A stretch of DNA of 64,000 nt from an uncultured Bacilli bacterium. GTDB lineage: Bacteria > Bacillota_I > Bacilli_A > RFN20 > CAG-826. The position numbers and the translations under genes were made by a program. The DNA lies in assembly GCA_944350425.1 (NCBI GenBank), contig CALVOX010000002.1:83649-147648 (forward strand). Reading direction: 5' to 3'. Of this stretch, positions 157 through 48,418 are shown piece after piece (position 1 is the first letter of the stretch; every line of letters starts with the position of its first letter). A model generated the notes under the pieces. The model ran no database searches. It worked only from the letters and a program-made list of their open reading frames with translations, and was not told the origin of the DNA.

Positions 157-1503
157 TTACAAAGGCGATATTCCTAAAATTTCATCAAAACATTTAAATA
201 AACGAGAAAAATCTCTTTTATTAATTTCATCTTTAGTTAATACAAACGGAATTTTTGCTACTATAATCTTAGGTTTTTGAAAGTTATTCTCAATATTTAA
301 AGTTTTAGTAACTATTTCAAAATTAGTATTATTTTTTAAAGGATAAAGCAAAATACCGATATTTGATTTATAGAATAAGACATAGTTAACAATTTGGTAA
401 ATATCATTTCTTTTAACATCGTCAAAACCATTTATATCTTTATACTTTGTATCTAAAATACATATAACATTATCGTTACTATCTTTAATCAGATTATCTG
501 TTTTTAGTGGAAATTTATTAGAATCTAAAAATAGTTTTCCATCATTATATTGCGGATAATTACAATATATTGATTTTTCTTTATTTAAAATAGTTAAATA
601 ATCATTTATCCTATTTGTAATAAATTTTTCGAATAATATATCCATTTTAAAGATAAAGCAAAAATTAATACCATTTTGCGAATTACTTTTTATATCAATA
701 TCAATCATTCCTTTTAAAATTATCTTAGCTAACAAAATTACATTTTTATAATCTTTATTTAATGCATTAAAATGAATTGATTCTATTAATCTTTTGAATA
801 ATTTTAAGTTTATATCACTTACTTCTTCAAATATAATCGATAATCTTTTCAATTTAGATTTATTTCGAAAACTTTTAGTTTTATTTAAAAATAGTTTTAT
901 ACAAAATTTTAAAATTTGATTAATATTATTATCAAAGCTAAAAACAACATATTCACAATTCAATAGATGTTTCTTTCCGTTAATATAGTTTTTAACATAA
1001 TTGTTAAAAACTATTCTACCACATACTTTATTTAAATCAGCATTACGCTCAATGTATGAATAATTTGGTTTTATAGCTAATAAACGGTCGATTTCATTAA
1101 TAAATTGAGTAATCAAAAACTCAAAACATGTTTCTTTATCATAATTAATCATATTTTCAGTTTTTTTGAATTTAACATTAAAGTAATCTTCTAGGTATAG
1201 ATTAAAATTATCAATGAATAAATTAAAACTTTCCTTCGAGTTAATTTCATCAAAAGGAAAAGGAAAAATATGAAAAATAGTATCTTTAAATATTATCTCT
1301 CCTAAATAGTGATTAATACGAAATGTTCTAGATGATAAATTAATTGAGATAATGGAATTGTCATCTTCTTCTTTGTTTACAAATAAATTATTTTCTAGGA
1401 CAATGTACTTTTTTATAAAGTTACAAAAATCTTCTATATCCTCTAGACTCCGATTTTTAGGAAATTCGATATTTTCTTTATCGAAACGATTTAATAAATG
1501 CAT
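157..1503 (-). CDS. mcrC: McrC-family restriction endonuclease subunit
   Basis: Directly downstream of mcrB. PD-(D/E)xK-type C-terminus (KTDNLI...ILDTKYK...DIYQIVNY...GILLYP), plus LFEKFI and GRI/DNNINQILK McrC-like segments. Confidence 0.85.
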   Translation of the reverse strand: MHLLNRFDKENIEFPKNRSLEDIEDFCNFIKKYIVLENNLFVNKEEDDNSIISINLSSRTFRINHYLGEIIFKDTIFHIFPFPFDEINSKESFNLFIDNFNLYLEDYFNVKFKKTENMINYDKETCFEFLITQFINEIDRLLAIKPNYSYIERNADLNKVCGRIVFNNYVKNYINGKKHLLNCEYVVFSFDNNINQILKFCIKLFLNKTKSFRNKSKLKRLSIIFEEVSDINLKLFKRLIESIHFNALNKDYKNVILLAKIILKGMIDIDIKSNSQNGINFCFIFKMDILFEKFITNRINDYLTILNKEKSIYCNYPQYNDGKLFLDSNKFPLKTDNLIKDSNDNVICILDTKYKDINGFDDVKRNDIYQIVNYVLFYKSNIGILLYPLKNNTNFEIVTKTLNIENNFQKPKIIVAKIPFVLTKDEINKRDFSRLFKCFDEILGISPL

Positions 1504-22082: not shown

Positions 22083-23126
22083 TTAAAAATTTGAAACAAA
22101 AGATGAAAAATTAAATTTTTCATAGTTAAGTTTTGGTAAATCGTGTTCGAATTTATTAATCGATAAAGTTGTTTCGCATTTAAAAATCGTTGGAATTTCT
22201 TCTCCTAAAAGATAACCGAATCTTGAAAAAGAAGCTTGAAAACTCATTCCGCTTGCATAATCGGCATAAATTCCAGACTCATCATTTGACCTAAAATAAT
22301 CAAATTTAAAGGATGGACAAAAATTAGGATTTAATTTGGTTTTTATGCTTGGTGAGTTAATTAATGCCTTGTATGATAAGCTGAATTGATTACATTCAAT
22401 ACTTTCGTTCATTGAATTTCCTTCAATATAAATTTTATTATCTTTTCTAGTAACTACTTCAGTTGGTAAATAACCAACTAGCGGGATAAATTCATTATTT
22501 TTATCAATCGTAAAAGATAGATAATCTATTCTAGAATTTTCGTTTGCTGCAATTGTTGCAAAGTTAGCAAATAAATATTCCCCGCCAATATTTGAAACAT
22601 TGGATTTAAATAGGTAATTTTGAAGAAAAAGATAACCATAGTTGTTGTTATACCCATCGAGTGAAATGCAATTAGCTCTTGTTTGAGCTAAGTCCCGATT
22701 TGAACCAATGTTAAATTGATGTTCAAGATCTCTTAAACCATATGGAGGATTTTCAGCTGTAATGATTAAATTAATCAACAATTCATGAACTTTGCGAGGT
22801 GTGGAAAAATTAGTTGCAAAAATATCGCCCAATATTTCTTCATCTTCATTAACCCATCTAAAATCACCGAATTTAATTAGAGTTACCTCATCACTCTTTG
22901 AAGCGTTATTATTTTGATTTTCTTCAAGAAAATCAAAATAATATATATTTATATTTAAGTCTACATGTCTACTATTATAGCCATATGTTCCATCTTCTCG
23001 TAAAAGCATTTCTTTTAAATCAGAAACGTCAAACTTTAAACCGTTTTTCCTAGAATCTTCATTTTGACAACTACAAAGAGAAAATAGCGTAATAGCAAAC
23101 AAACAAAGAACTCTATTTCTTTTCAT
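22083..23126 (-). CDS. Lipoprotein, unknown function
   Basis: Lipobox LCSC. Contains an in-frame CGG at codon 144. Confidence 0.7.
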   Translation of the reverse strand: MKRNRVLCLFAITLFSLCSCQNEDSRKNGLKFDVSDLKEMLLREDGTYGYNSRHVDLNINIYYFDFLEENQNNNASKSDEVTLIKFGDFRWVNEDEEILGDIFATNFSTPRKVHELLINLIITAENPPYGLRDLEHQFNIGSNRDLAQTRANCISLDGYNNNYGYLFLQNYLFKSNVSNIGGEYLFANFATIAANENSRIDYLSFTIDKNNEFIPLVGYLPTEVVTRKDNKIYIEGNSMNESIECNQFSLSYKALINSPSIKTKLNPNFCPSFKFDYFRSNDESGIYADYASGMSFQASFSRFGYLLGEEIPTIFKCETTLSINKFEHDLPKLNYEKFNFSSFVSNF

Positions 23127-30438: not shown

Positions 30439-32082
<1,644 letters not shown>

Positions 32083-32349
32083 TTATTTAATAACCGCGAT
32101 AATATCTTCATCTTTAATTAAAAGATATTCATCATCGTTATCTTTATATTTAGTAGTTGAATACTCTTTAAAAATAACTTTTACTCCTTTAACGAGTTCT
32201 TTATTTTTAACTTCACTTCCTACTTCAACAATATTTGCAACATTTCCTTCATCTTTTTTAGTAGTTGAAATGATAATGGAACCGACCTTTTTTTCTTCTT
32301 TAATTTCGTCTTTTTTTAGTAAACAATAGTTATTTAATGGTTGAATCAT
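32083..32349 (-). CDS. groS: Co-chaperonin GroES
   Basis: Start moved to MIQPLNN (AGGAGG RBS). EYLLIKDEDIIAVI C-terminus, directly upstream of groL. Confidence 0.93.
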   Translation of the reverse strand: MIQPLNNYCLLKKDEIKEEKKVGSIIISTTKKDEGNVANIVEVGSEVKNKELVKGVKVIFKEYSTTKYKDNDDEYLLIKDEDIIAVIK

Positions 32350-32393
32350 ATTGAATCCTCCTTTTAAAACCATAAATAATTGTAAACCACTTT

Positions 32394-32420
32394 TTAGCAA
32401 ATGCAAGCAAAGAGTGCTAA
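32394..32420 (-). promoter_or_regulatory. CIRCE (HrcA operator), one arm degenerate
   Basis: TTAGCACTC-N9-ATTTGCTAA versus consensus TTAGCACTC-N9-GAGTGCTAA, upstream of groS. Confidence 0.8.
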
Positions 32421-33020: not shown

Positions 33021-33087
33021 TTATTAAACTAAATAAAAATACCTTTAAATGAAAATTCATTTAAAGGTAATAAAGTTTATCTAAATG

Positions 33088-33171
33088 TGGCCCAAGTCGG
33101 ACTCGAACCGACACAGTATCGCTACCATTGGATTTTGAGTCCAACGCGTCTACCAATTTCGCCATTAGGCC
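33088..33171 (-). tRNA. tRNA-Leu(CAA)
   Basis: GGCCTAA/TTGGGCC acceptor, TTGGA-CT-CAA-AA-TCCAA anticodon arm, long variable arm, A73. CCA not encoded. Confidence 0.93.
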
Positions 33172-34012: not shown

Positions 34013-34471
34013 TTATTCTAAATGCTTATGATACATTCTTGTTTCATGAATTCCATCTTCTTCTTTTACCATAGTTAAGAATTTATAGCCATATCTTCCA
34101 TATAAACTAGTATGGTCGGTTACTAAATATAAATCTAAAATTCCTTTAGATTCCATATCTACTTCTACTAGATTAAGCAAAGTTTTTGCTATACCATGGT
34201 GGCGATATTCTCCTTCAACATATAAAGCGCAGATATTTGGAGTTAAATCTTTCCTTAAATGAAAATCATTATCGATCACTCCTACTCCAGCTACTATACT
34301 TTCATGATCTAAACAAAGAAACCAACAATAGTTAGTTTTCTTGTTAATATAGTCTTCAAAACACTTGATATATTCTTCAACAGGTACATTAAATTTAGAG
34401 TTAAACCATTTAGCGGCATCAATTTTTAAATCAGGTCTGTCTCTTAAAGTAACATAGACTAGTTTATTCAT
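34013..34471 (-). CDS. GNAT-family acetyltransferase
   Basis: NDFHLRKDLTPNICALYV..YRHHGIA, YLVTDHTSLYGRYG. Confidence 0.85.
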   Translation of the reverse strand: MNKLVYVTLRDRPDLKIDAAKWFNSKFNVPVEEYIKCFEDYINKKTNYCWFLCLDHESIVAGVGVIDNDFHLRKDLTPNICALYVEGEYRHHGIAKTLLNLVEVDMESKGILDLYLVTDHTSLYGRYGYKFLTMVKEEDGIHETRMYHKHLE

Positions 34472-34568
34472 TTCTTTTCCTTTCTTTTATTAAATAATTC
34501 TTAAATTAATATAACATATTAATCTTATATTTAAAGAATATACAACCTAAATTCATAAGCCTTAAAAA

Positions 34569-34602
34569 TAAAAAAGCATAGTGACGATACTATGTTTTTC
34601 TT
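34569..34602 (-). terminator. Terminator after tRNA(CCG)
   Basis: AAAAAGCATAGT..ACTATGTTTTT hairpin. Confidence 0.6.
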
Positions 34603-34603
34603 T

Positions 34604-34677
34604 TGGCATGCCTAAGAGGAATCGAACCTCTAAATCTGACTTCGGAGATCAGCGGTTTACCATTAACCTATAGGCAT
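34604..34677 (-). tRNA. tRNA with CCG anticodon and Trp-like body (putative tRNA-Trp(CCG))
   Basis: 74 nt: ATGCCTA-TA-GGTT-AATGGTA-AACC-G-CTGAT-CT-CCG-AA-GTCAG-ATTT-AGAGG-TTCGATT-CCTCT-TAGGCAT-G-CCA. U20, A1:U72, G73. The tRNA gene itself is certain; the Trp identity is inferred. Confidence 0.9.
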
Positions 34678-34770
34678 ATAAATATATATTATTCTTTTAA
34701 AATAACTTTAATATTTTAAATTAAGTATGTAATAAATTTAAGTAAAAGTTGATTAGAATAATATATAAAT

Positions 34771-34800
34771 ATAAAAACGTGGAACTAACCACGTTTTTAT
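34771..34800 (-). terminator. Terminator of the EF-G-like gene
   Basis: ATAAAAACGTGG-N6-CCACGTTTTTAT. Confidence 0.7.
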
Positions 34801-34818
34801 ATTCAAAAGGAGTAATGC

Positions 34819-36873
34819 CTATTTAAGTTTATTTTCTTCAATTACTTTATCTTTTAAGTTAGCAGGCACTTCTTGATATTCTTCAAACTCTCTAACGAAA
34901 TATCCTCCACCTTGAGTAATTGATTTAAGTTTAGCTGAATATTCACTAATTTCAGCTTCTGGAATAGATGCAATAATCTTTTGAGATTCACTACCATCTT
35001 CTTCCATCATAATATTTTTAGCTCTTCTAGTATTTAAATCAGAGATAACATCACCAATATATTGGTTTTCAACATAGATAGTAACTTTCATGATAGGCTC
35101 TAAAATAATAGGTTTACAGTTCATATATGCTTCTTTAAAAGCTAGAATTGCAGCCATTTTAAAGGCCATTTCATTTGAATCAACTGGGTGATATTTACCA
35201 TCTTTAAGTGTACCTTTTACTCCAATTACTGGGAATCCTGCTAAGAGACCACTTTGTAAAGCTTCATAGAAACCTTTTTCAACAGCAGGGAAATATTGTT
35301 TAGGAACACTTCCTCCAAAGACTGTTTCTTCAAATTTATTTTCTTCACATGGTTCAAAATCCATGACTACAACACCATAGAATCCACTACCACCTGATTG
35401 TTTAATATATCTACCTGTTGCTTCAGCTTTACCTTTAATCGATTCACGATAAACTACCTTAGGTTTAGATACTTTAGTATTAATCTTATATGTATTTTTT
35501 AATTTATCTAAGATATAGGAAACATGGAAGTTGCCAAGCCCACCAACTAAAAGTTGTTTAGTCTCTTGATTTCTTTTAACTTCAACTGTTGGATCTTCTA
35601 AGACAATCTTTTGTAAAACATTTGAGAGTTTATCTTCATCTTTCTTATTTTCAACTTCAATTCCTCTAAAATATACCGCCGTTGGATATTTAGGCTTTTT
35701 AAAAGCAATTATACGTTTAGGGTCTGATAATGTATCACCAGTTTTTATACCTTCAACTTTAGAAATAGCACAAATATCTCCAGCACCAACTTTTTCTACT
35801 GGTATTTGTTTTTTACCTAATAAATAGAATAGATTAGATACTTTAAAATCACTATTTAATTCATAAGAATGAATAGTATCACCTAAAGATAATGAACCAC
35901 TATTAATCTTTAATATATTTATAGTTCCAGCATAAACATCGACCATAGTTTTAAAAACATAAGCACTAAATGGTTCTTCATTTTTACTTAATACTTCAAC
36001 TTCATTTCCATTTTCATCATGAGCTTCAAAGGAATTTAAATCACTAGGTGAAGGTAAATATTCACTTGTCATATGAAGCAAAGTATGACAACCGATAGTT
36101 TTAGTAGCACAACCTACAATTAAAGGAGTAATATCACCATCTAAAACACCTTTTCTTAAACCTTGAGAAATTTCTTCTTTAGTTAAAGTTTCACCTGCAA
36201 AGAATTTATCAAGAAGTTCATCGTTACTAGTAGCAACAGCCTCTAGAACCATGTTGTTATATTCTAAGACGATACCTTTTTTATCTTCATAAATTGGTGC
36301 ATCGACACATTTTTCACCATCAAATATTCTTGCATTTAAAGTAACGCAGTTAGCAAAACCATCAAATTGATCTGCATGACCTAAAGGATATGAAAATGGT
36401 GCAACTTTTTTACCTAATTTATCTCTTATTTCTTCTAATAATGCATCAAAGTCAATTCCTTCTTTATCCATTTTATTAACATAAATAATAGTTGGAATAT
36501 TTTTCTTTCTTAGCATTTTAAAATGCTTGATAGTACCTTGTTGAACGCCTGAAGTTGCGTCAATAACTAAAATTGCTCCTTTTACACAAGAAGTAACACC
36601 GATAATTTCACCTACGAAATCATCGTTTCCTGGAAGGTCTATAAAATTATAACGATAGCCTTCATATTCAACTGGAACAATAGAACCTTGGATAGAAGAA
36701 AGTCTATCTTGTTCTTCTTTAAGATAATCACTGATAGTTGTTCCTTTTTCTACACTTCCTTTTGTAGGACTATCAGTAGCTACTTGATATAAGGATTCTA
36801 CTAAAGTCGTCTTACCTGAGCCTTGGTGTCCAAGTATGACGACATTCCTTATTTTGTCGGGACTAAAACTCAT
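34819..36873 (-). CDS. Elongation factor G paralog (EF-G2 type)
   Basis: IRNVVILGHQGSGKTT, DLPGNDDF, NKMD, VYRESI, KQSGGSG, DGKYHPVDSNEMAF, ILEP. Confidence 0.9.
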   Translation of the reverse strand: MSFSPDKIRNVVILGHQGSGKTTLVESLYQVATDSPTKGSVEKGTTISDYLKEEQDRLSSIQGSIVPVEYEGYRYNFIDLPGNDDFVGEIIGVTSCVKGAILVIDATSGVQQGTIKHFKMLRKKNIPTIIYVNKMDKEGIDFDALLEEIRDKLGKKVAPFSYPLGHADQFDGFANCVTLNARIFDGEKCVDAPIYEDKKGIVLEYNNMVLEAVATSNDELLDKFFAGETLTKEEISQGLRKGVLDGDITPLIVGCATKTIGCHTLLHMTSEYLPSPSDLNSFEAHDENGNEVEVLSKNEEPFSAYVFKTMVDVYAGTINILKINSGSLSLGDTIHSYELNSDFKVSNLFYLLGKKQIPVEKVGAGDICAISKVEGIKTGDTLSDPKRIIAFKKPKYPTAVYFRGIEVENKKDEDKLSNVLQKIVLEDPTVEVKRNQETKQLLVGGLGNFHVSYILDKLKNTYKINTKVSKPKVVYRESIKGKAEATGRYIKQSGGSGFYGVVVMDFEPCEENKFEETVFGGSVPKQYFPAVEKGFYEALQSGLLAGFPVIGVKGTLKDGKYHPVDSNEMAFKMAAILAFKEAYMNCKPIILEPIMKVTIYVENQYIGDVISDLNTRRAKNIMMEEDGSESQKIIASIPEAEISEYSAKLKSITQGGGYFVREFEEYQEVPANLKDKVIEENKLK

Positions 36874-37171
36874 TATTTTTCCTCCTAATTATGTGAAGAG
36901 TTTTTTGAATAACTGAATTAATGATAACACGAACTTAAGAAAATACACATATATTTTTATTATTAATTAAGATTTTTATTTTTATTAAGAAAGAAGGATA
37001 AAAATAATAAAAATAAGAATGAAAATTGCAAAAATATAATTTTAGTTTTAAATACTAGATATAATAGTTTTTGGAATCTTAAAATTTAAATATCAATGAT
37101 ATTTATGTTGCAATCTTCATTTTTTAGTGTAATATAATGTTAAGCGAAGTTATCGCTATTTGGTTTTGTTT

Positions 37172-38830
37172 ATGAAAAAAAATTTACATATATTTGGTCT
37201 AAGTTTGATTCTTTCAAATTTAGTTACGTCTTGCGGCTTTAATCAAACTGCTTCAATCGATCAAAAACTTCTTCTTGATCCTTTTAAAGCATATACGATG
37301 ATTAATAACTACTACCAAGATGAAGCAAGATTATATTATGTTGAAACTAGTGGTGAACTTGTTTCTTCAAGAGGAAATAAAGAGTTAATTAAAGAATACA
37401 AAGTTAAAGATGGAAAAAAATTCTATTCTTTGAAATCTACTAAGTCTGATTTATTTGATCCAATATCTTTTAAAAGATATTTTAATGAAGTAGAAAATGA
37501 ATATGCAGTTTCTTTTAAGGATGAATCAGATGATATGATTTTTGTTGATACCAATAGCGAAACTCAATATTCAACTTTTTCTTTTTTAGACCATAAAAAT
37601 TATTCAGATACTTATGGTTATGATTTAAAAAGTATTACTAATTTTACAGTTTTTGATGGATATGAAAATTTGTCATTTAAAGAAGCTAAAATTAGTCGTA
37701 ATTCAAATAGTGAAATAGAATATTCCTATACTTTGAATTTATCATCAAAGCTAAATAATGGGGTTCAAATTAGCGAAGAAGATATTTCCTCATATTCTTC
37801 AATTAATGCTACTGTTTTAGAAGCTAGAGAAATTGATGCAATTAATGAGTTAAATGATGTAAATATTAAAGAAGCTTCTTTCAAACTTCTTTTTGATAAA
37901 ATTCGTAATGAAATTAATCAAATTATCGTAAACGAAACTTTAACTATTGGAAGCGTTCCTTTTACCTATACTTATACTTCAAATTTCCATACCTATATGA
38001 AAGAAAATCCGCTTCCTGGAACGACTCTACCAAATAAATATCAAGAATTAGTTAACGATATTTCTTCATCAATAGAATCTTCAAAAGATGTTCTTGTTGA
38101 AAATCTTTATATCGCATATCTAGATTTAAACAAAAAATATAAAGAAAAGAATTACTATACTACGACTGAATCTAGTGTCGAAGCTTTAGGTGGAATATAT
38201 TCTCAAACCGTTAAAGGATTTAAACTTAAAAATGATGATGATTATTTCTTCCAAACTGTAACTACTTCAGCTTTTGTTAATAAAGCCGAACAAAGATTTG
38301 AAAATCAAGTTGGAAATAAATATATGCTTGCTTCAGGAAATAATCCAAGTTCAAATTCAACTATCGGAAGTTGTGATTCACGGAACAATTTCGATGATTT
38401 GACAAAAGAGGAATATTTATTAAATATTGGGCATACAATGGATAACATTACAAATTACATTGTTGATGAAAATGATCCATCTAAATCATTTATAAATGCT
38501 ACTTCTTCAACTATTGATGGTAAGAAAGTTTATAGTTTTGAAATGTCGGTTAATGAAGATGATAACCACATAGATTCAACAAAAGATTACAAAGTTGAAA
38601 TGAATCATATGTCAAATATGGGACTTCCTTCATTCTCTTATTCAAATATTGAAATTCATCTTAAGGAAAATGAAGAAATTGATAAGATTGTTCAAAAGGA
38701 AAAATATAAGACTGGTGGTTTTGAATGTACTTCGACAATGACTACTTATTTCCATACCTATTCAGATATTAACGAGATTCCAAATGATATATTAAGTTTG
38801 TATAACGAAAGAATTAAAGGAGAGAATTAA
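37172..38830 (+). CDS. Lipoprotein built from two tandem homologous domains
   Basis: Start MKKNLH, lipobox VTSC. N-half YSDTYGYDLKSITNFTV aligns to C-half YLLNIGHTMDNITNYIV. Confidence 0.75.
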   Translation: MKKNLHIFGLSLILSNLVTSCGFNQTASIDQKLLLDPFKAYTMINNYYQDEARLYYVETSGELVSSRGNKELIKEYKVKDGKKFYSLKSTKSDLFDPISFKRYFNEVENEYAVSFKDESDDMIFVDTNSETQYSTFSFLDHKNYSDTYGYDLKSITNFTVFDGYENLSFKEAKISRNSNSEIEYSYTLNLSSKLNNGVQISEEDISSYSSINATVLEAREIDAINELNDVNIKEASFKLLFDKIRNEINQIIVNETLTIGSVPFTYTYTSNFHTYMKENPLPGTTLPNKYQELVNDISSSIESSKDVLVENLYIAYLDLNKKYKEKNYYTTTESSVEALGGIYSQTVKGFKLKNDDDYFFQTVTTSAFVNKAEQRFENQVGNKYMLASGNNPSSNSTIGSCDSRNNFDDLTKEEYLLNIGHTMDNITNYIVDENDPSKSFINATSSTIDGKKVYSFEMSVNEDDNHIDSTKDYKVEMNHMSNMGLPSFSYSNIEIHLKENEEIDKIVQKEKYKTGGFECTSTMTTYFHTYSDINEIPNDILSLYNERIKGEN

Positions 38831-40998
38831 TGAAAAAGAATAAGATATTAACACTATTACTAAGTTTTTCTTGCGTAACTTCTCTTCTTTCTTCATGTAA
38901 TCAAGAAGAGAATACTATTCCTGATATTCCAAGTGAAGAACCAGAAAAAATATATAAATATAAAGATCCTAAATGTTATGAAGGTACATTAATTTCAAAT
39001 CTTGATTTACCTTTATTTAATGAAACTACTCTTCATGTTCCACTTTTAGATACAAAAATTAATTTTACCTATCAAGAAATTGATCAAGAATTAAGTGAAG
39101 ATGAAAGTATGAGAAAAATTAAATTCCATCTAAATATGGATTTATATTCTTCTCAAGAAATGTATGAATCATCTATTTTAAGTGAATATGTTCTTACAAG
39201 TGTTTTCGGTGATTTCAAATATCAAAACATTTTAAATAATGTAAGTGATTTAGATTTTTATTATTATGGAGATGGTGTTTTATATACTACCATTTCACGT
39301 TTTGAAAATAATGCAAAGCCATCTAGAGTAGATGAAGAATATTTAAAAGCATATCCTCGTGAAATAATTGGTACTTCTAAAATTGATATTTCTTCTTTAA
39401 TGGATATGGTCGGAACAGTTTCTAGCGATAACTCGACTGATTTTATTATTCAGCAAATATATTCAATTCTTTCAGGATTTAGTGTAAAAATAGGCGATAT
39501 TACTTCATTTATTGAAGGAGTAACAATCGATGTTTTAGACGAAGGCTTTAAAGCTAGTGTCGATCAAGAAGGCTTAGATGGTCTTTCATCAATTTTAACC
39601 AACATTGTTAATTTCACTATTAACAAACTTGGAATTGATGTTAATTTAAAAGATGGGAATTTACTTGATTTAAATAAGTTTGAAATTTCTTATACACCTC
39701 TTGCAATTTCAGCTACTATTTTAAGCGAAAACTCAACTTCTTCTTTATTAAATTTATCATTAACTCGTAATGATAATAACGCTTTAAGCGTTGAAAGCAG
39801 CGTTAATCTCGAAGAAGATTATTTAATACAAGAAAAAGCTGTTAAAGCTGTTAATTCTTTCTATTCCTTATATGATAGCTACTCTTTGGATGGTTCATCA
39901 CAAACCGATATTTATAACGCTATTTCGACAATTAATGGTTTAAATAGCGATGAAAAATCAAGAATTGCTAACTTTAATTCTTATCTTGGTTACGATGTTT
40001 TAACAATAGATGAAAACGGTAATTATACCGGCTTAAGCGAGGAAGAAGCTATTCAAAATTACTATCAAAATATTTTAGATGTAATTAATGGAGAAAATTC
40101 AACTGATTATGAAATAATAAACGGATTAGAAAAGGTATTCTCCTTGTTTAACGAAAATAAATATTCTGATTCATTAAAATTTAACCTTTTAACATACTTA
40201 GAAAGAAATAATGAAGAAGAATATAATGGCTATTTAGACAAAATTTCATCTTTCTTAAACCGTTTCCTTGATCAAATCCTAGAAGATGTTAACACTCTTC
40301 TTAATGAATATAACAAAGATGAAGAACATACTTTAGAAAAAACTCATGATTTAATTGAAAATATTTATAATCTCACTTTTTTTGATAATATTATCTTAAG
40401 TGATGATAAAGAAATTAAATTAGAAGATTTAAAAGAAAACGATATTATTAAAGCTCTTCCTTCCGAAATTCTTTCAAAAATAGCTTATATTTTCTCAATG
40501 AACCATCAAATATTTGACCAAACTTATGCTCAAAATATTTCTTCAATTATTATCAACTACTTAGATGAAATTTACAAAATGGTCATCGATATGGGCGAAA
40601 AGAGCGACATCAAAGAGTTTAGAGATGTTCCTTCATACTTGATTCTAAATGAAGATAACGATGAAATGTATAAAATCTTTGATTTAATTTCAAACGGCAA
40701 TCTTCAATTTATCAATACAATCAAAAATAAACTTGATGATATTATCTCTGATTTACTTTACAAAGCTGATTTAATGGCTAATAAAAAGCTAGATAATACA
40801 ATAACTATTGAAGAAATTAGATTAATTTTCAATAAAGAAGACTTAGCTTCAAAAAAAGAGCTTCTTGATGGAATGTATAACATGATTCATGTTTATTTAT
40901 CATCGCCACTTTATGAAAAATATGAAGCAAATCTTTCCTATATTGATAAATATTACGAACTTTGTAATGAGTTTGAACTCCAAGAAGACCGCCTTTAA
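38830..40998 (+). CDS. Large acidic lipoprotein
   Basis: Lipobox LSSC. Translationally coupled (TAATG) to the upstream lipoprotein. Confidence 0.75.
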   Translation: MKKNKILTLLLSFSCVTSLLSSCNQEENTIPDIPSEEPEKIYKYKDPKCYEGTLISNLDLPLFNETTLHVPLLDTKINFTYQEIDQELSEDESMRKIKFHLNMDLYSSQEMYESSILSEYVLTSVFGDFKYQNILNNVSDLDFYYYGDGVLYTTISRFENNAKPSRVDEEYLKAYPREIIGTSKIDISSLMDMVGTVSSDNSTDFIIQQIYSILSGFSVKIGDITSFIEGVTIDVLDEGFKASVDQEGLDGLSSILTNIVNFTINKLGIDVNLKDGNLLDLNKFEISYTPLAISATILSENSTSSLLNLSLTRNDNNALSVESSVNLEEDYLIQEKAVKAVNSFYSLYDSYSLDGSSQTDIYNAISTINGLNSDEKSRIANFNSYLGYDVLTIDENGNYTGLSEEEAIQNYYQNILDVINGENSTDYEIINGLEKVFSLFNENKYSDSLKFNLLTYLERNNEEEYNGYLDKISSFLNRFLDQILEDVNTLLNEYNKDEEHTLEKTHDLIENIYNLTFFDNIILSDDKEIKLEDLKENDIIKALPSEILSKIAYIFSMNHQIFDQTYAQNISSIIINYLDEIYKMVIDMGEKSDIKEFRDVPSYLILNEDNDEMYKIFDLISNGNLQFINTIKNKLDDIISDLLYKADLMANKKLDNTITIEEIRLIFNKEDLASKKELLDGMYNMIHVYLSSPLYEKYEANLSYIDKYYELCNEFELQEDRL

Positions 40999-48341: not shown

Positions 48342-48418
48342 TGGTGATCACGGAGGGATTCGAACCCTCGACCTACTCCTTAGGAGGGAGTTACTCTATC
48401 CAGCTGAGCTACGTAACC
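48342..48418 (-). tRNA. tRNA-Arg(CCT)
   Basis: ACTCC-CT-CCT-AA-GGAGT anticodon arm. D-loop AGCTGGATA retains A20. CCA encoded. Confidence 0.95.

What the first reader, a model, noticed from the sequence alone, without database searches (positions are those of the whole stretch)
34604..34677. tRNA(CCG) with tryptophan identity: probable CGG Arg->Trp genetic code
Seen: an intact 74-nt tRNA with its own terminator has anticodon CCG (34643-34645). Its D-loop AAUGGUA has U at position 20, it has an A1:U72 pair, G73, a 4-nt variable loop and a CU-CCG-AA loop. The other arginine-anticodon tRNA in the window (CCU, 48342) does keep A20. Known: A20 is a major ArgRS determinant, while G73 and A1:U72 are Bacillus TrpRS determinants, and the size and layout match a Firmicute tRNA-Trp (loop CU-CCA-AA) differing by one anticodon base. 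CGG->Trp reassignment was reported in the Codetta screen (Shulgina & Eddy) for Anaerococcus and a clade of uncultured Bacilli. Inference: this organism decodes CGG as Trp, so table-11 translations are wrong at CGG. It may belong to that clade or be a further case.
Basis: partly seen in the sequence, partly recalled or inferred. Interest (0 to 1): 0.9.

Follow-up and report, generated by a model that had tools for sequence, protein, structure and literature searches.

The report
Tryptophan tRNA that reads CGG
This small gut bacterium carries a tryptophan-type tRNA with anticodon CCG and uses the rare codon CGG where its relatives have tryptophan, a genetic-code change already reported for its genus (Candidatus Onthovivens), so standard translations of its genes are wrong at CGG.

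Summary
A 74-nt tRNA(CCG) lies on the minus strand at 34604-34677, with A1:U72, G73, U20, a 4-nt variable loop and loop CUCCGAA.

Of 37 CGG sites alignable to a same-genus genome, 21 align to TGG/Trp and none to Arg. Against a genome of another family, 9 of 30 align to Trp and 1 to Arg. The other five Arg codons align to Arg at 43-58%, and TGG aligns to Trp at 60-70%. The same pipeline calls CGG as Arg in both relatives, which carry tRNA-Arg(UCG).

CGG replaces invariant Trp in IleRS and CysRS and in a window ORF.

It is not a further case. The genome sits in the genus that holds Ca. Onthovivens merdipullorum. That genus is the RFN20 clade for which CGG->Trp is published.

The tRNA occurs in 38 of 60 genus genomes and never together with tRNA-Arg(UCG), which 8 of 60 carry. 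It was found in none of 347 genomes of 47 other genera of the family.

Charging by TrpRS is inferred, not shown.

The parts
34604..34677 (-). tRNA(CCG) of tryptophan type, 74 nt with encoded CCA
   Evidence: ARAGORN. Rfam tRNA 66.1 bits. Sequence read. Homologues in 27 genus genomes parsed.
34643..34645 (-). anticodon CCG (positions 34-36)
34570..34601 (-). A+U-rich hairpin followed by a U-run directly after the CCA; probable weak intrinsic terminator
   Evidence: Fold -7.6 kcal/mol, z -3.16. Not called by the consensus scan.
34766..34805 (-). terminator-like hairpin (17 pairs) ending the upstream EF-G-family gene, so the tRNA is probably a transcription unit of its own
34819..36873 (-). EF-G-family GTPase ORF upstream of the tRNA (context only)
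   Evidence: Pfam GTP_EFTU, EFG_IV, EFG_C, EFG_III.
38381..38383 (+). CGG codon 408 of ORF 37160-38830; should read Trp
   Evidence: Aligns to W in 16 of 19 homologues (34-87% identity). It is 'R' only in the 3 at 98% identity.
1450..1452 (-). CGG codon 18 of the McrC-like ORF 157-1503; Trp by inference from the genome-wide result
   Evidence: Position. NCBIfam McrC match over residues 113-392. No homologue in G003 or G028, so this site is untested.
22695..22697 (-). CGG codon 144 of ORF 22083-23126; Trp by inference from the genome-wide result
   Evidence: Position. No family match. No homologue in G003 or G028, so this site is untested.
48342..48418 (-). tRNA-Arg(CCU), 77 nt, with A20: the ordinary arginine layout, for comparison
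33087..33171 (-). tRNA-Leu(CAA) downstream; the same neighbour lies beside the tRNA(CCG) in two relatives
   Evidence: Loci L002 and L004.

Best explanation
The gene encodes a tRNA of tryptophan identity whose anticodon CCG pairs only with CGG. It most likely descends from a copy of tRNA-Trp(CCA) with A36 changed to G. The cell's single TrpRS is inferred to charge it (G73 kept, arginine determinant A20 absent), so CGG is translated as tryptophan.

CGU, CGC and CGA stay arginine through tRNA-Arg(ACG, presumably read as ICG). No tRNA(UCG) is present, so CGG is read by this tRNA alone. CGG is very rare in this 27-28% G+C genome, and new CGG codons arise as silent T-to-C changes of TGG.

Shown here: the tRNA and its features, its conservation with compensatory stem changes, and the use of CGG at Trp positions but not at Arg positions. 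Inferred: charging by TrpRS, descent from tRNA-Trp, and exclusive (non-ambiguous) decoding.
For: Codon test.
- 951 ORFs of at least 100 aa hold 75 CGG codons in 69 ORFs (0.22 per 1000), against 1663 TGG.
- With X placed at CGG and tblastn against whole relatives, same-genus G003 covers 37 sites: 21 W (all TGG), 0 R.
- Other-family G028 covers 30 sites: 9 W, 1 R. At looser settings it covers 37 of 75 sites: 11 W, 1 R.
- Controls in the same runs: TGG->W 60% and 70%; CGT, CGC, CGA, AGA and AGG->R 43-58%.
- lnL(W)-lnL(R) is 54.4 and 136.9. W beats the next model (Y) by 24.0 and 80.8. Q scores -128.5 and -198.1 against W at -82.8 and -71.2.
- P of this many W at the background W frequency of 0.47% is 1e-14 and 1e-39.
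- Negative control: the same pipeline gives Arg for CGG in G028 (R 12/23, 9/20; W 0) and in G003 (R 3/10, 3/8; W 0). Both carry tRNA-Arg(UCG).

Invariant tryptophans.
- IleRS codon 92 (GWDTHGLPIE) is W in PDB 8c9e and 1ffy.
- That codon is TGG in 51 of 51 other genomes examined, including one with 96% identical IleRS.
- CysRS codon 206 is W in PDB 8qhp.
- Window ORF codon 408 is W in 16 of 19 homologues.

The tRNA.
- All 28 tRNA(CCG) genes parsed from 27 genus genomes have G73, U8-A9, a 4-nt variable loop and no A20. The 1:72 pair is A:U in 19, G:U in 3 and G:C in 6. Stem changes are compensatory.
- A profile of the family scores best on the three tRNA-Trp(CCA) genes tested (34.3, 31.9, 30.0 bits). 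Gly and Ala score at most 27.5, and Arg at most 12.1.

Setting.
- The genome has tRNA-Arg ACG, UCU and CCU, no UCG, and one TrpRS.
- These traits match the published pattern for Firmicute CGG reassignments (PMC8629427, section 11 read).
Against: - No aminoacylation, tRNA-sequencing or peptide data exist for this organism. RNA-library contigs did not cover the tRNA (see Tried and rejected).
- CGG sites align to W less often than TGG sites do: 30% against 60% for G028 (p 0.0008) and 57% against 70% for G003 (p 0.065). Some CGG codons therefore lie at poorly conserved places, or decoding is not purely Trp.
- Only 30-37 of the 75 sites could be aligned.
- C35 and G36 are arginine-type anticodon bases (recalled knowledge, not tested here), so some charging by ArgRS cannot be excluded.
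- This tRNA's own closest pairwise matches are tRNA-Asn (0.68-0.71), just above tRNA-Trp (0.69). Descent from tRNA-Trp rests on the family profile and the shared layout, not on this one sequence.
- ORFs were called mechanically, not by a gene finder.
Confidence: 0.9

Rival explanations
1. Ambiguous decoding. The tRNA(CCG) is charged mostly by TrpRS but also partly by ArgRS, which could recognise C35 and G36. CGG would then give a mixture of Trp and Arg, an intermediate stage of reassignment.
For: CGG sites align to W less often than TGG sites do. The Codetta authors state that ambiguous translation cannot be detected computationally (PMC8629427, sections 11-12, passages read).
Against: R is found at 0 of 37 and 1 of 30 aligned CGG sites. 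CGG sits at invariant, functionally constrained Trp in IleRS and CysRS. A20 is absent from all 28 family members parsed.
Confidence: 0.07
2. It is an unusual but functional tRNA-Arg(CCG), and CGG keeps its standard meaning.
For: Only the anticodon itself. ARAGORN labels it Arg by anticodon alone.
Against: - No A20, and a layout unlike the genome's three Arg tRNAs.
- The profile scores at most 12.1 bits on Arg tRNAs, against 30-34 on Trp.
- lnL(R) is 54 and 137 units worse than lnL(W).
- P of so few R at the Arg-codon rate is 2e-9 and 3e-14.
Confidence: 0.01
3. CGG is reassigned to another residue: Gln as in Peptacetobacter, or an aromatic residue such as Tyr or Phe.
For: Some CGG sites align to F, Y or L, as TGG sites also do.
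Against: lnL for Y, F and Q is worse than for W by 24 to 127 units in both comparisons. The spectrum W > F/Y/L mirrors that of TGG. G73 with the tRNA-Trp layout fits Trp.
Confidence: 0.01
4. CGG is effectively unassigned and the tRNA gene is inert. The CGG codons would be sequencing or assembly errors, or would lie in decaying genes.
For: CGG is very rare: 75 codons.
Against: - The tRNA is conserved in 38 of 60 genus genomes with compensatory changes.
- CGG lies in intact essential genes such as IleRS, AlaRS, CysRS and YidC.
- A near relative has an identical tRNA.
- Three database proteins at 98% identity carry R at the same place in the window ORF.
Confidence: 0.01

Closest known systems
CGG Arg->Trp reassignment in the RFN20 clade of uncultivated Bacilli (Shulgina & Eddy 2021, PMC8629427), called Candidatus Onthovivens in PMC13092985 and bioRxiv 10.64898/2026.05.03.722492
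   Same: Same genus by my placement. Same tRNA(CCG) traits: G73, no A20, A/G1:U72. No tRNA(UCG), tRNA-Arg(ACG) kept, G+C 0.27-0.28, CGG about 2 per 10,000 codons, and CGG at conserved Trp.
   Different: Nothing of kind. I could not see figure 4-supplement 2 or the source-data table, so I cannot say whether this species was in their set.
CGG->Trp in Anaerococcus (and a Trp-like tRNA(CCG) in Finegoldia), same paper
   Same: Same codon, same new meaning, and a Trp-type tRNA(CCG) in a low-G+C Firmicute without tRNA(UCG).
   Different: Unrelated lineage (class Clostridia by recalled taxonomy), so an independent origin. The paper found no supporting conserved positions there (section 11), whereas here there are many.
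CGA/CGG->Trp in Absconditabacterales, same paper
   Same: Arg-to-Trp change of CGG.
   Different: There CGA changes as well, UGA is Gly, and tRNA(UCG) takes part. Here CGA aligns to Arg at 48-50%.
CGG->Gln in Peptacetobacter; unassigned CGG in Mycoplasma capricolum
   Same: The rare CGG in an A+T-rich Firmicute is freed by loss of its decoder.
   Different: The outcome differs. The Gln model is rejected here, and CGG is decoded here.
AGG->Met in Ca. Enterosoma (RFN20, family CAG-288)
   Same: Same order; sense-codon reassignment of an Arg codon.
   Different: Different codon and route: there an Arg tRNA changed identity. Here AGG aligns to Arg at 47-48%.

Membership tests
Trp-type tRNA(CCG) / CGG->Trp code (criteria of Shulgina & Eddy 2021) | Anticodon CCG in an intact tRNA | tested here: met
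Trp-type tRNA(CCG) / CGG->Trp code (criteria of Shulgina & Eddy 2021) | G73 discriminator and no A20 in the D-loop | tested here: met
   G73 and U20 read. All 28 family members parsed show the same. Criteria read.
Trp-type tRNA(CCG) / CGG->Trp code (criteria of Shulgina & Eddy 2021) | Supportive weak element A/G1:U72 | tested here: met
   A1:U72 here. In the family: A:U 19, G:U 3, but G:C 6 of 28.
Trp-type tRNA(CCG) / CGG->Trp code (criteria of Shulgina & Eddy 2021) | CGG codons fall in conserved Trp columns, not Arg columns | tested here: met
   Negative control. This was my own alignment test against two genomes, not Codetta with Pfam.
Trp-type tRNA(CCG) / CGG->Trp code (criteria of Shulgina & Eddy 2021) | No tRNA(UCG); tRNA-Arg(ACG) present; low G+C; CGG under 6 per 10,000 | tested here: met
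   42 tRNAs listed (assembly 95% complete, so absence holds only for the assembly). G+C 0.25-0.30 per contig. CGG 2.2 per 10,000 ORF codons; the paper's denominator is Pfam-aligned codons.
Trp-type tRNA(CCG) / CGG->Trp code (criteria of Shulgina & Eddy 2021) | tRNA charged with Trp; Trp found at CGG in protein | not testable with these tools
   Needs aminoacylation assays or proteomics. By the passages read, it has not been done for any of the published clades either.
Genus Candidatus Onthovivens (order RFN20) | Placement with Ca. O. merdipullorum rather than with other genera | tested here: met
   - GroEL is 83% identical to the Ca. O. merdipullorum record, and 75% or less to CAG:288, UBA7642 and Enterosoma records.
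- Same-genus handles are at 83-86%; the best of the other genera is at 73%.
- The handle reached through that named record gives the same contig number, coordinates and matched string as a 'same genus' handle.
- No GTDB-Tk run was possible.
Canonical bacterial tRNA-Arg(CCG) | A20 in the D-loop; Arg at CGG positions | tested here: not met
   U20. R at 0 of 37 and 1 of 30 aligned sites.
Peptacetobacter-type CGG->Gln | CGG in conserved Gln columns | tested here: not met
   lnL(Q) is -128.5 and -198.1, against lnL(W) of -82.8 and -71.2.

The most novel reading that the evidence does not exclude
Within this one genus the freed codon CGG may have been captured in two opposite directions.

Most lineages read it as Trp through a tRNA-Trp-derived tRNA(CCG). 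One well-supported clade (7 UCG-bearing genomes plus 2 without either tRNA) reads it as Arg through a tRNA(UCG). That tRNA(UCG) is not the ancestral one but a recent copy of tRNA-Arg(ACG). In G003 it differs from its own ACG tRNA at 3 positions, against 26 from the outgroup's tRNA(UCG).

That would be either a second, independent capture from an unassigned state or a reversion from Trp to Arg. Either way, both outcomes of codon capture would be comparable among close relatives.
Probability: 0.35. Interest if true: 0.6.

Novelty: already known. Interest (0 to 1): 0.3.

Why it matters
**Practical.** Every table-11 translation of this genome, and of at least 38 species of its genus, puts Arg where the cell very probably puts Trp. 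That affects 75 positions here, including catalytic-core tryptophans of IleRS and CysRS. Public protein databases already hold such mistranslated entries: three 98%-identical proteins carry R at the window ORF's CGG. Annotation pipelines should use a CGG=Trp code for this genus.

**Scientific.** It is one more well-supported instance of one of the few bacterial sense-codon reassignments. The genus holds CCG-bearing and UCG-bearing lineages side by side. That makes it a good place to study how a codon is lost and recaptured, and how TrpRS comes to accept G36.

Tried and rejected
- **Expression.** The look-up of sequencing runs listed 6 runs, none holding half of the sampled words. Four were laid. 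All are contigs, they cover only the neighbouring EF-G-family gene (and in one run 34424-34575), and none covers the tRNA. This gives no information either way.
- **BLAST as a census.** Using the 74-nt tRNA as query found only 9 of 24 genus genomes and 0 of 16 from other families. It is too insensitive, so I replaced it with patterns.
- **Pattern limits.** The first, strict pattern missed 13 real tRNA(CCG) genes with D-loop AGUGGUA or other small differences. The loose pattern gave two matches that ARAGORN does not call tRNAs (in G046 and G076).
- **Pairwise tRNA identity.** It does not place this single tRNA with Trp (Asn is marginally higher). Only the family profile does.
- **Single-strand MFE fold.** The fold of the tRNA is not the cloverleaf and is not distinctive (z -1.87). 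This is uninformative for tRNAs.
- **Leave-one-out control.** It miscalled ATG as L against G028. This is an artefact: removing the only Met codon leaves an empty Met model.
- **Order of events.** The careful IleRS tree search did not finish in the time allowed, so I used the quick tree. Its base is unresolved, so the order of events in the genus is left open.
- **tRNA-Arg(ACG/UCG) of five more UCG-bearing genomes.** I did not pursue it.
- **Window ORFs.** Those with CGG at 1450-1452 and 22695-22697 have no homologue in G003 or G028, so these two sites are untested.
- **Not compared.** TrpRS sequences of CCG-bearing and UCG-bearing lineages.

Full report
**Observation**

ARAGORN finds four tRNAs in the window, among them a tRNA with anticodon CCG at 34604-34677 on the minus strand. 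Rfam's tRNA model scores it 66.1 bits, E 3.6e-12. Read 5'->3' on the minus strand, it has these features:
- 74 nt with an encoded CCA;
- acceptor stem with A1:U72, and discriminator G73;
- U8 A9;
- D-loop AAUGGUA (U20, not A20);
- anticodon stem of five pairs closed by U31-G39, and loop CUCCGAA;
- a 4-nt variable loop.

The three other arginine-anticodon tRNAs of the genome (ACG, UCU, CCU) are 77 nt with D-loops ending GGAUA, that is, with A20. The genome's tRNA-Trp(CCA) shares the length of 74 nt, the D-loop AAUGGUA, G73, the 4-nt variable loop and the loop CUCCAAA.

An A+U-rich hairpin with a U-run follows the CCA (-7.6 kcal/mol, z -3.16). The consensus scan did not call it. That scan did call a strong hairpin at 34805-34766, which ends the upstream EF-G-family gene.

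**Genome**

The window is C2:83649-147648 of a 1,150,323-base assembly in 17 contigs, at 25-30% G+C per contig. It has 42 tRNA genes. Arg is served by ACG, UCU and CCU, there is no UCG, and there is one tRNA-Trp(CCA). There is one TrpRS gene.

In 951 non-overlapping ORFs of at least 100 aa (90% of the genome, 341,694 codons), CGG occurs 75 times in 69 ORFs. That is 0.22 per 1000, against 1663 TGG and 8271 AGA.

**What CGG means**

I fetched two whole relatives. G028 is in the same order but another family (1,280,280 bases). G003 is in the same genus (886,487 bases). Both carry tRNA-Arg(UCG) and no tRNA(CCG). All G000 ORFs, with X at CGG, were laid on them by tblastn (E<=1e-10, best segment only).

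| Codon(s) | vs G003 | vs G028 |
|---|---|---|
| CGG, aligned sites | 37 | 30 |
| CGG -> W | 21 (all TGG) | 9 |
| CGG -> R | 0 | 1 |
| TGG -> W | 70% | 60% |
| CGT, CGC, CGA, AGA, AGG -> R | 48-58% | 43-55% |

At looser settings against G028, 37 of the 75 sites were covered, with 11 W and 1 R.

A likelihood comparison used the aligned-residue spectra of the other 60 sense codons as models. Trp came first by 24.0 and 80.8 log units over the runner-up (Tyr). It led Arg by 54.4 and 136.9, and Gln was far behind. The same test called the standard amino acid for 59 of 60 and 60 of 60 control codons. The one miss (ATG) is an artefact of leave-one-out on a single-codon amino acid.

The reverse experiment is the negative control. 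CGG codons of G028 align to R at 12 of 23 and 9 of 20 sites, and those of G003 at 3 of 10 and 3 of 8. None aligns to W.

One result pulls against a clean picture. CGG sites align to W less often than TGG sites do (p 0.0008 for G028, 0.065 for G003). Young codons in less conserved places would explain this. So would some ambiguity in decoding.

**Single sites**

The CGG-bearing genes include IleRS, AlaRS, CysRS, YidC, glycogen phosphorylase, GalU, an RluA-family synthase, a CNNM protein and two ABC exporters.
- IleRS codon 92 is the W of GWDTHGLPIE in the solved IleRS structures 8c9e and 1ffy.
- That codon is TGG in all 51 other genomes examined (50 of the genus and G028). This includes G065, whose IleRS is 96% identical. 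The change to CGG is therefore very recent and silent only if CGG is Trp.
- CysRS codon 206 is the W before DSPWG in 8qhp.
- In the window, codon 408 of ORF 37160-38830 aligns to W in 16 of 19 database homologues (34-87% identity). The three at 98% identity show R, which is the table-11 reading of the same codon.
- The other two in-frame CGG codons of the window (1450-1452 and 22695-22697, minus strand) have no homologue in the two relatives and remain untested.

**The tRNA family**

By patterns and ARAGORN, 38 of the 60 species genomes of the genus (G000 included) hold a tRNA(CCG). Among genomes at least 90% complete, the count is 32 of 40. I parsed 28 genes from 27 genomes. The other 11 genomes matched the strict pattern but were not run through ARAGORN.

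All 28 parsed genes have G73, U8-A9, a 4-nt variable loop, 74-75 nt and no A20. The 1:72 pair is A:U in 19, G:U in 3 and G:C in 6. U31-G39 occurs in 21. The stems vary by compensatory changes.

A profile of ten family members scores highest on the three tRNA-Trp(CCA) genes available (34.3, 31.9, 30.0 bits). Gly and Ala tRNAs score at most 27.5, and Arg tRNAs at most 12.1. This supports descent from tRNA-Trp. This window's own copy is, by plain identity, no closer to Trp than to Asn.

**Where it belongs**

GroEL of the window is:
- 83-97% identical to uncultured Bacilli MAGs;
- 83% identical to Candidatus Onthovivens merdipullorum;
- 75% identical to Clostridium sp. CAG:288;
- 66-69% identical to the UBA7642 and Enterosoma records.

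Same-genus handles are at 83-86%, and the best of the other genera sampled in the family is at 73%. The handle reached through the Onthovivens record returns the same contig number, coordinates and string as one of the 'same genus' handles. The genus is therefore Ca. Onthovivens.

[quoted passage not shown] Two 2026 papers (PMC13092985 and bioRxiv 10.64898/2026.05.03.722492; passages read) call that lineage Onthovivens.

So the finding is a member of the published clade, not a new case. I could not see the figure supplements or source tables, so I cannot say whether this species was listed. A scan of 401 genomes of the family found the Trp-like tRNA(CCG) pattern only in this genus: 33 genomes, against 0 of 347 in 47 other genera.

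**Inside the genus**

A tRNA-Arg(UCG) pattern is present in 8 of 60 genomes and never together with the tRNA(CCG). Fourteen genomes show neither.

On a quick IleRS tree of 52 rows (SH-aLRT support; the careful search did not finish), the groups are:
- a 100%-supported clade of seven UCG-bearers plus two genomes with neither tRNA;
- one clade of 34 (97% support; G000 with G065) and one of 7, holding the CCG-bearers;
- the eighth UCG-bearer (G013), left at the unresolved base.

Genomes with neither tRNA sit next to bearers, so unassembled tRNA genes are the likely reason.

G003's tRNA-Arg(UCG) differs from its own tRNA-Arg(ACG) at 3 positions. It differs from G028's tRNA-Arg(UCG) at 26 positions, and the ACG tRNAs of G003 and G000 differ at 11. 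In that lineage the CGG/CGA decoder thus looks like a recent copy of the ACG tRNA, not the ancestral UCG gene. The sequences from the other UCG-bearers could not be fetched.

**Mechanism**

Shown:
- an intact, conserved tRNA(CCG) with the tRNA-Trp layout;
- no competing CGG decoder in the assembly;
- CGG used at Trp positions and not at Arg positions.

Inferred:
- TrpRS charges the tRNA (G73 kept, A20 lost);
- ArgRS does not charge it;
- the gene arose from tRNA-Trp by A36G after CGG had become rare and tRNA(UCG) was lost, as in the published model (section 11).

**Verdict**

The value is practical: correct translation tables, and mistranslated database entries to fix. There is also a modest lead on how the codon was recaptured in two directions within one genus.

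Noticed in passing
G003 (loci L197:9587-9663 and L198, tRNA at 1310) and genus handles G016, G053, G013, G054, G011, G005, G080: Eight genus genomes carry tRNA-Arg(UCG) instead of the Trp-type tRNA(CCG). In G003 it differs from the same genome's tRNA-Arg(ACG) at only 3 positions (A34U plus the 31:39 pair), but at 26 from the outgroup's tRNA-Arg(UCG). It looks like a recent duplicate that restores Arg reading of CGG.
   Followed up: partly
G014 (L010:382-455 and L250), G060 (L248): G014 holds two tRNA(CCG) genes. The second type, shared with G060, has G1:C72, loop GUCCGAA and A31:U39, but still G73, no A20 and a 4-nt variable loop.
   Followed up: partly
tRNA(CCG) genes of G019, G047, G006, G049, G078: By my reading of the parsed stems, five of the 28 parsed tRNA(CCG) genes have a mismatch at 27:43 (G:A, A:A or A:G), that is, a 4-bp anticodon stem. 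This is the feature discussed in PMC13092985. The window's copy has C27:G43.
   Followed up: no
window 30439-32055 (-) GroEL and 32083-32406 (-) GroES: With the window's GroEL as query, only 27 of 151 family genomes gave a match (12 of 48 genera), although most are over 90% complete. GroEL may have been lost in much of this reduced-genome family, or be too diverged for this query.
   Followed up: no
window 37160-38830 (+) and 38830-40998 (+): Two long adjacent ORFs (556 and 722 aa) have no Pfam or NCBIfam match. The first has 19 homologues of similar length, all unnamed and without Pfam domains.
   Followed up: partly
G000 C4:57548-57907: ARAGORN calls a tmRNA whose predicted tag peptide (DDYKFNLVFIISFLKCL) does not look like the usual Ala-rich tag. 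The tag call may be wrong.
   Followed up: no
window 157-1503 (-): A McrC-like ORF (5-methylcytosine restriction system specificity protein; NCBIfam E 4.5e-21) carries one of the window's three CGG codons near its N-terminus.
   Followed up: no
G056 IleRS (L279): The IleRS match in G056 contains one in-frame TAA. This could be a sequencing error or a broken gene.
   Followed up: no
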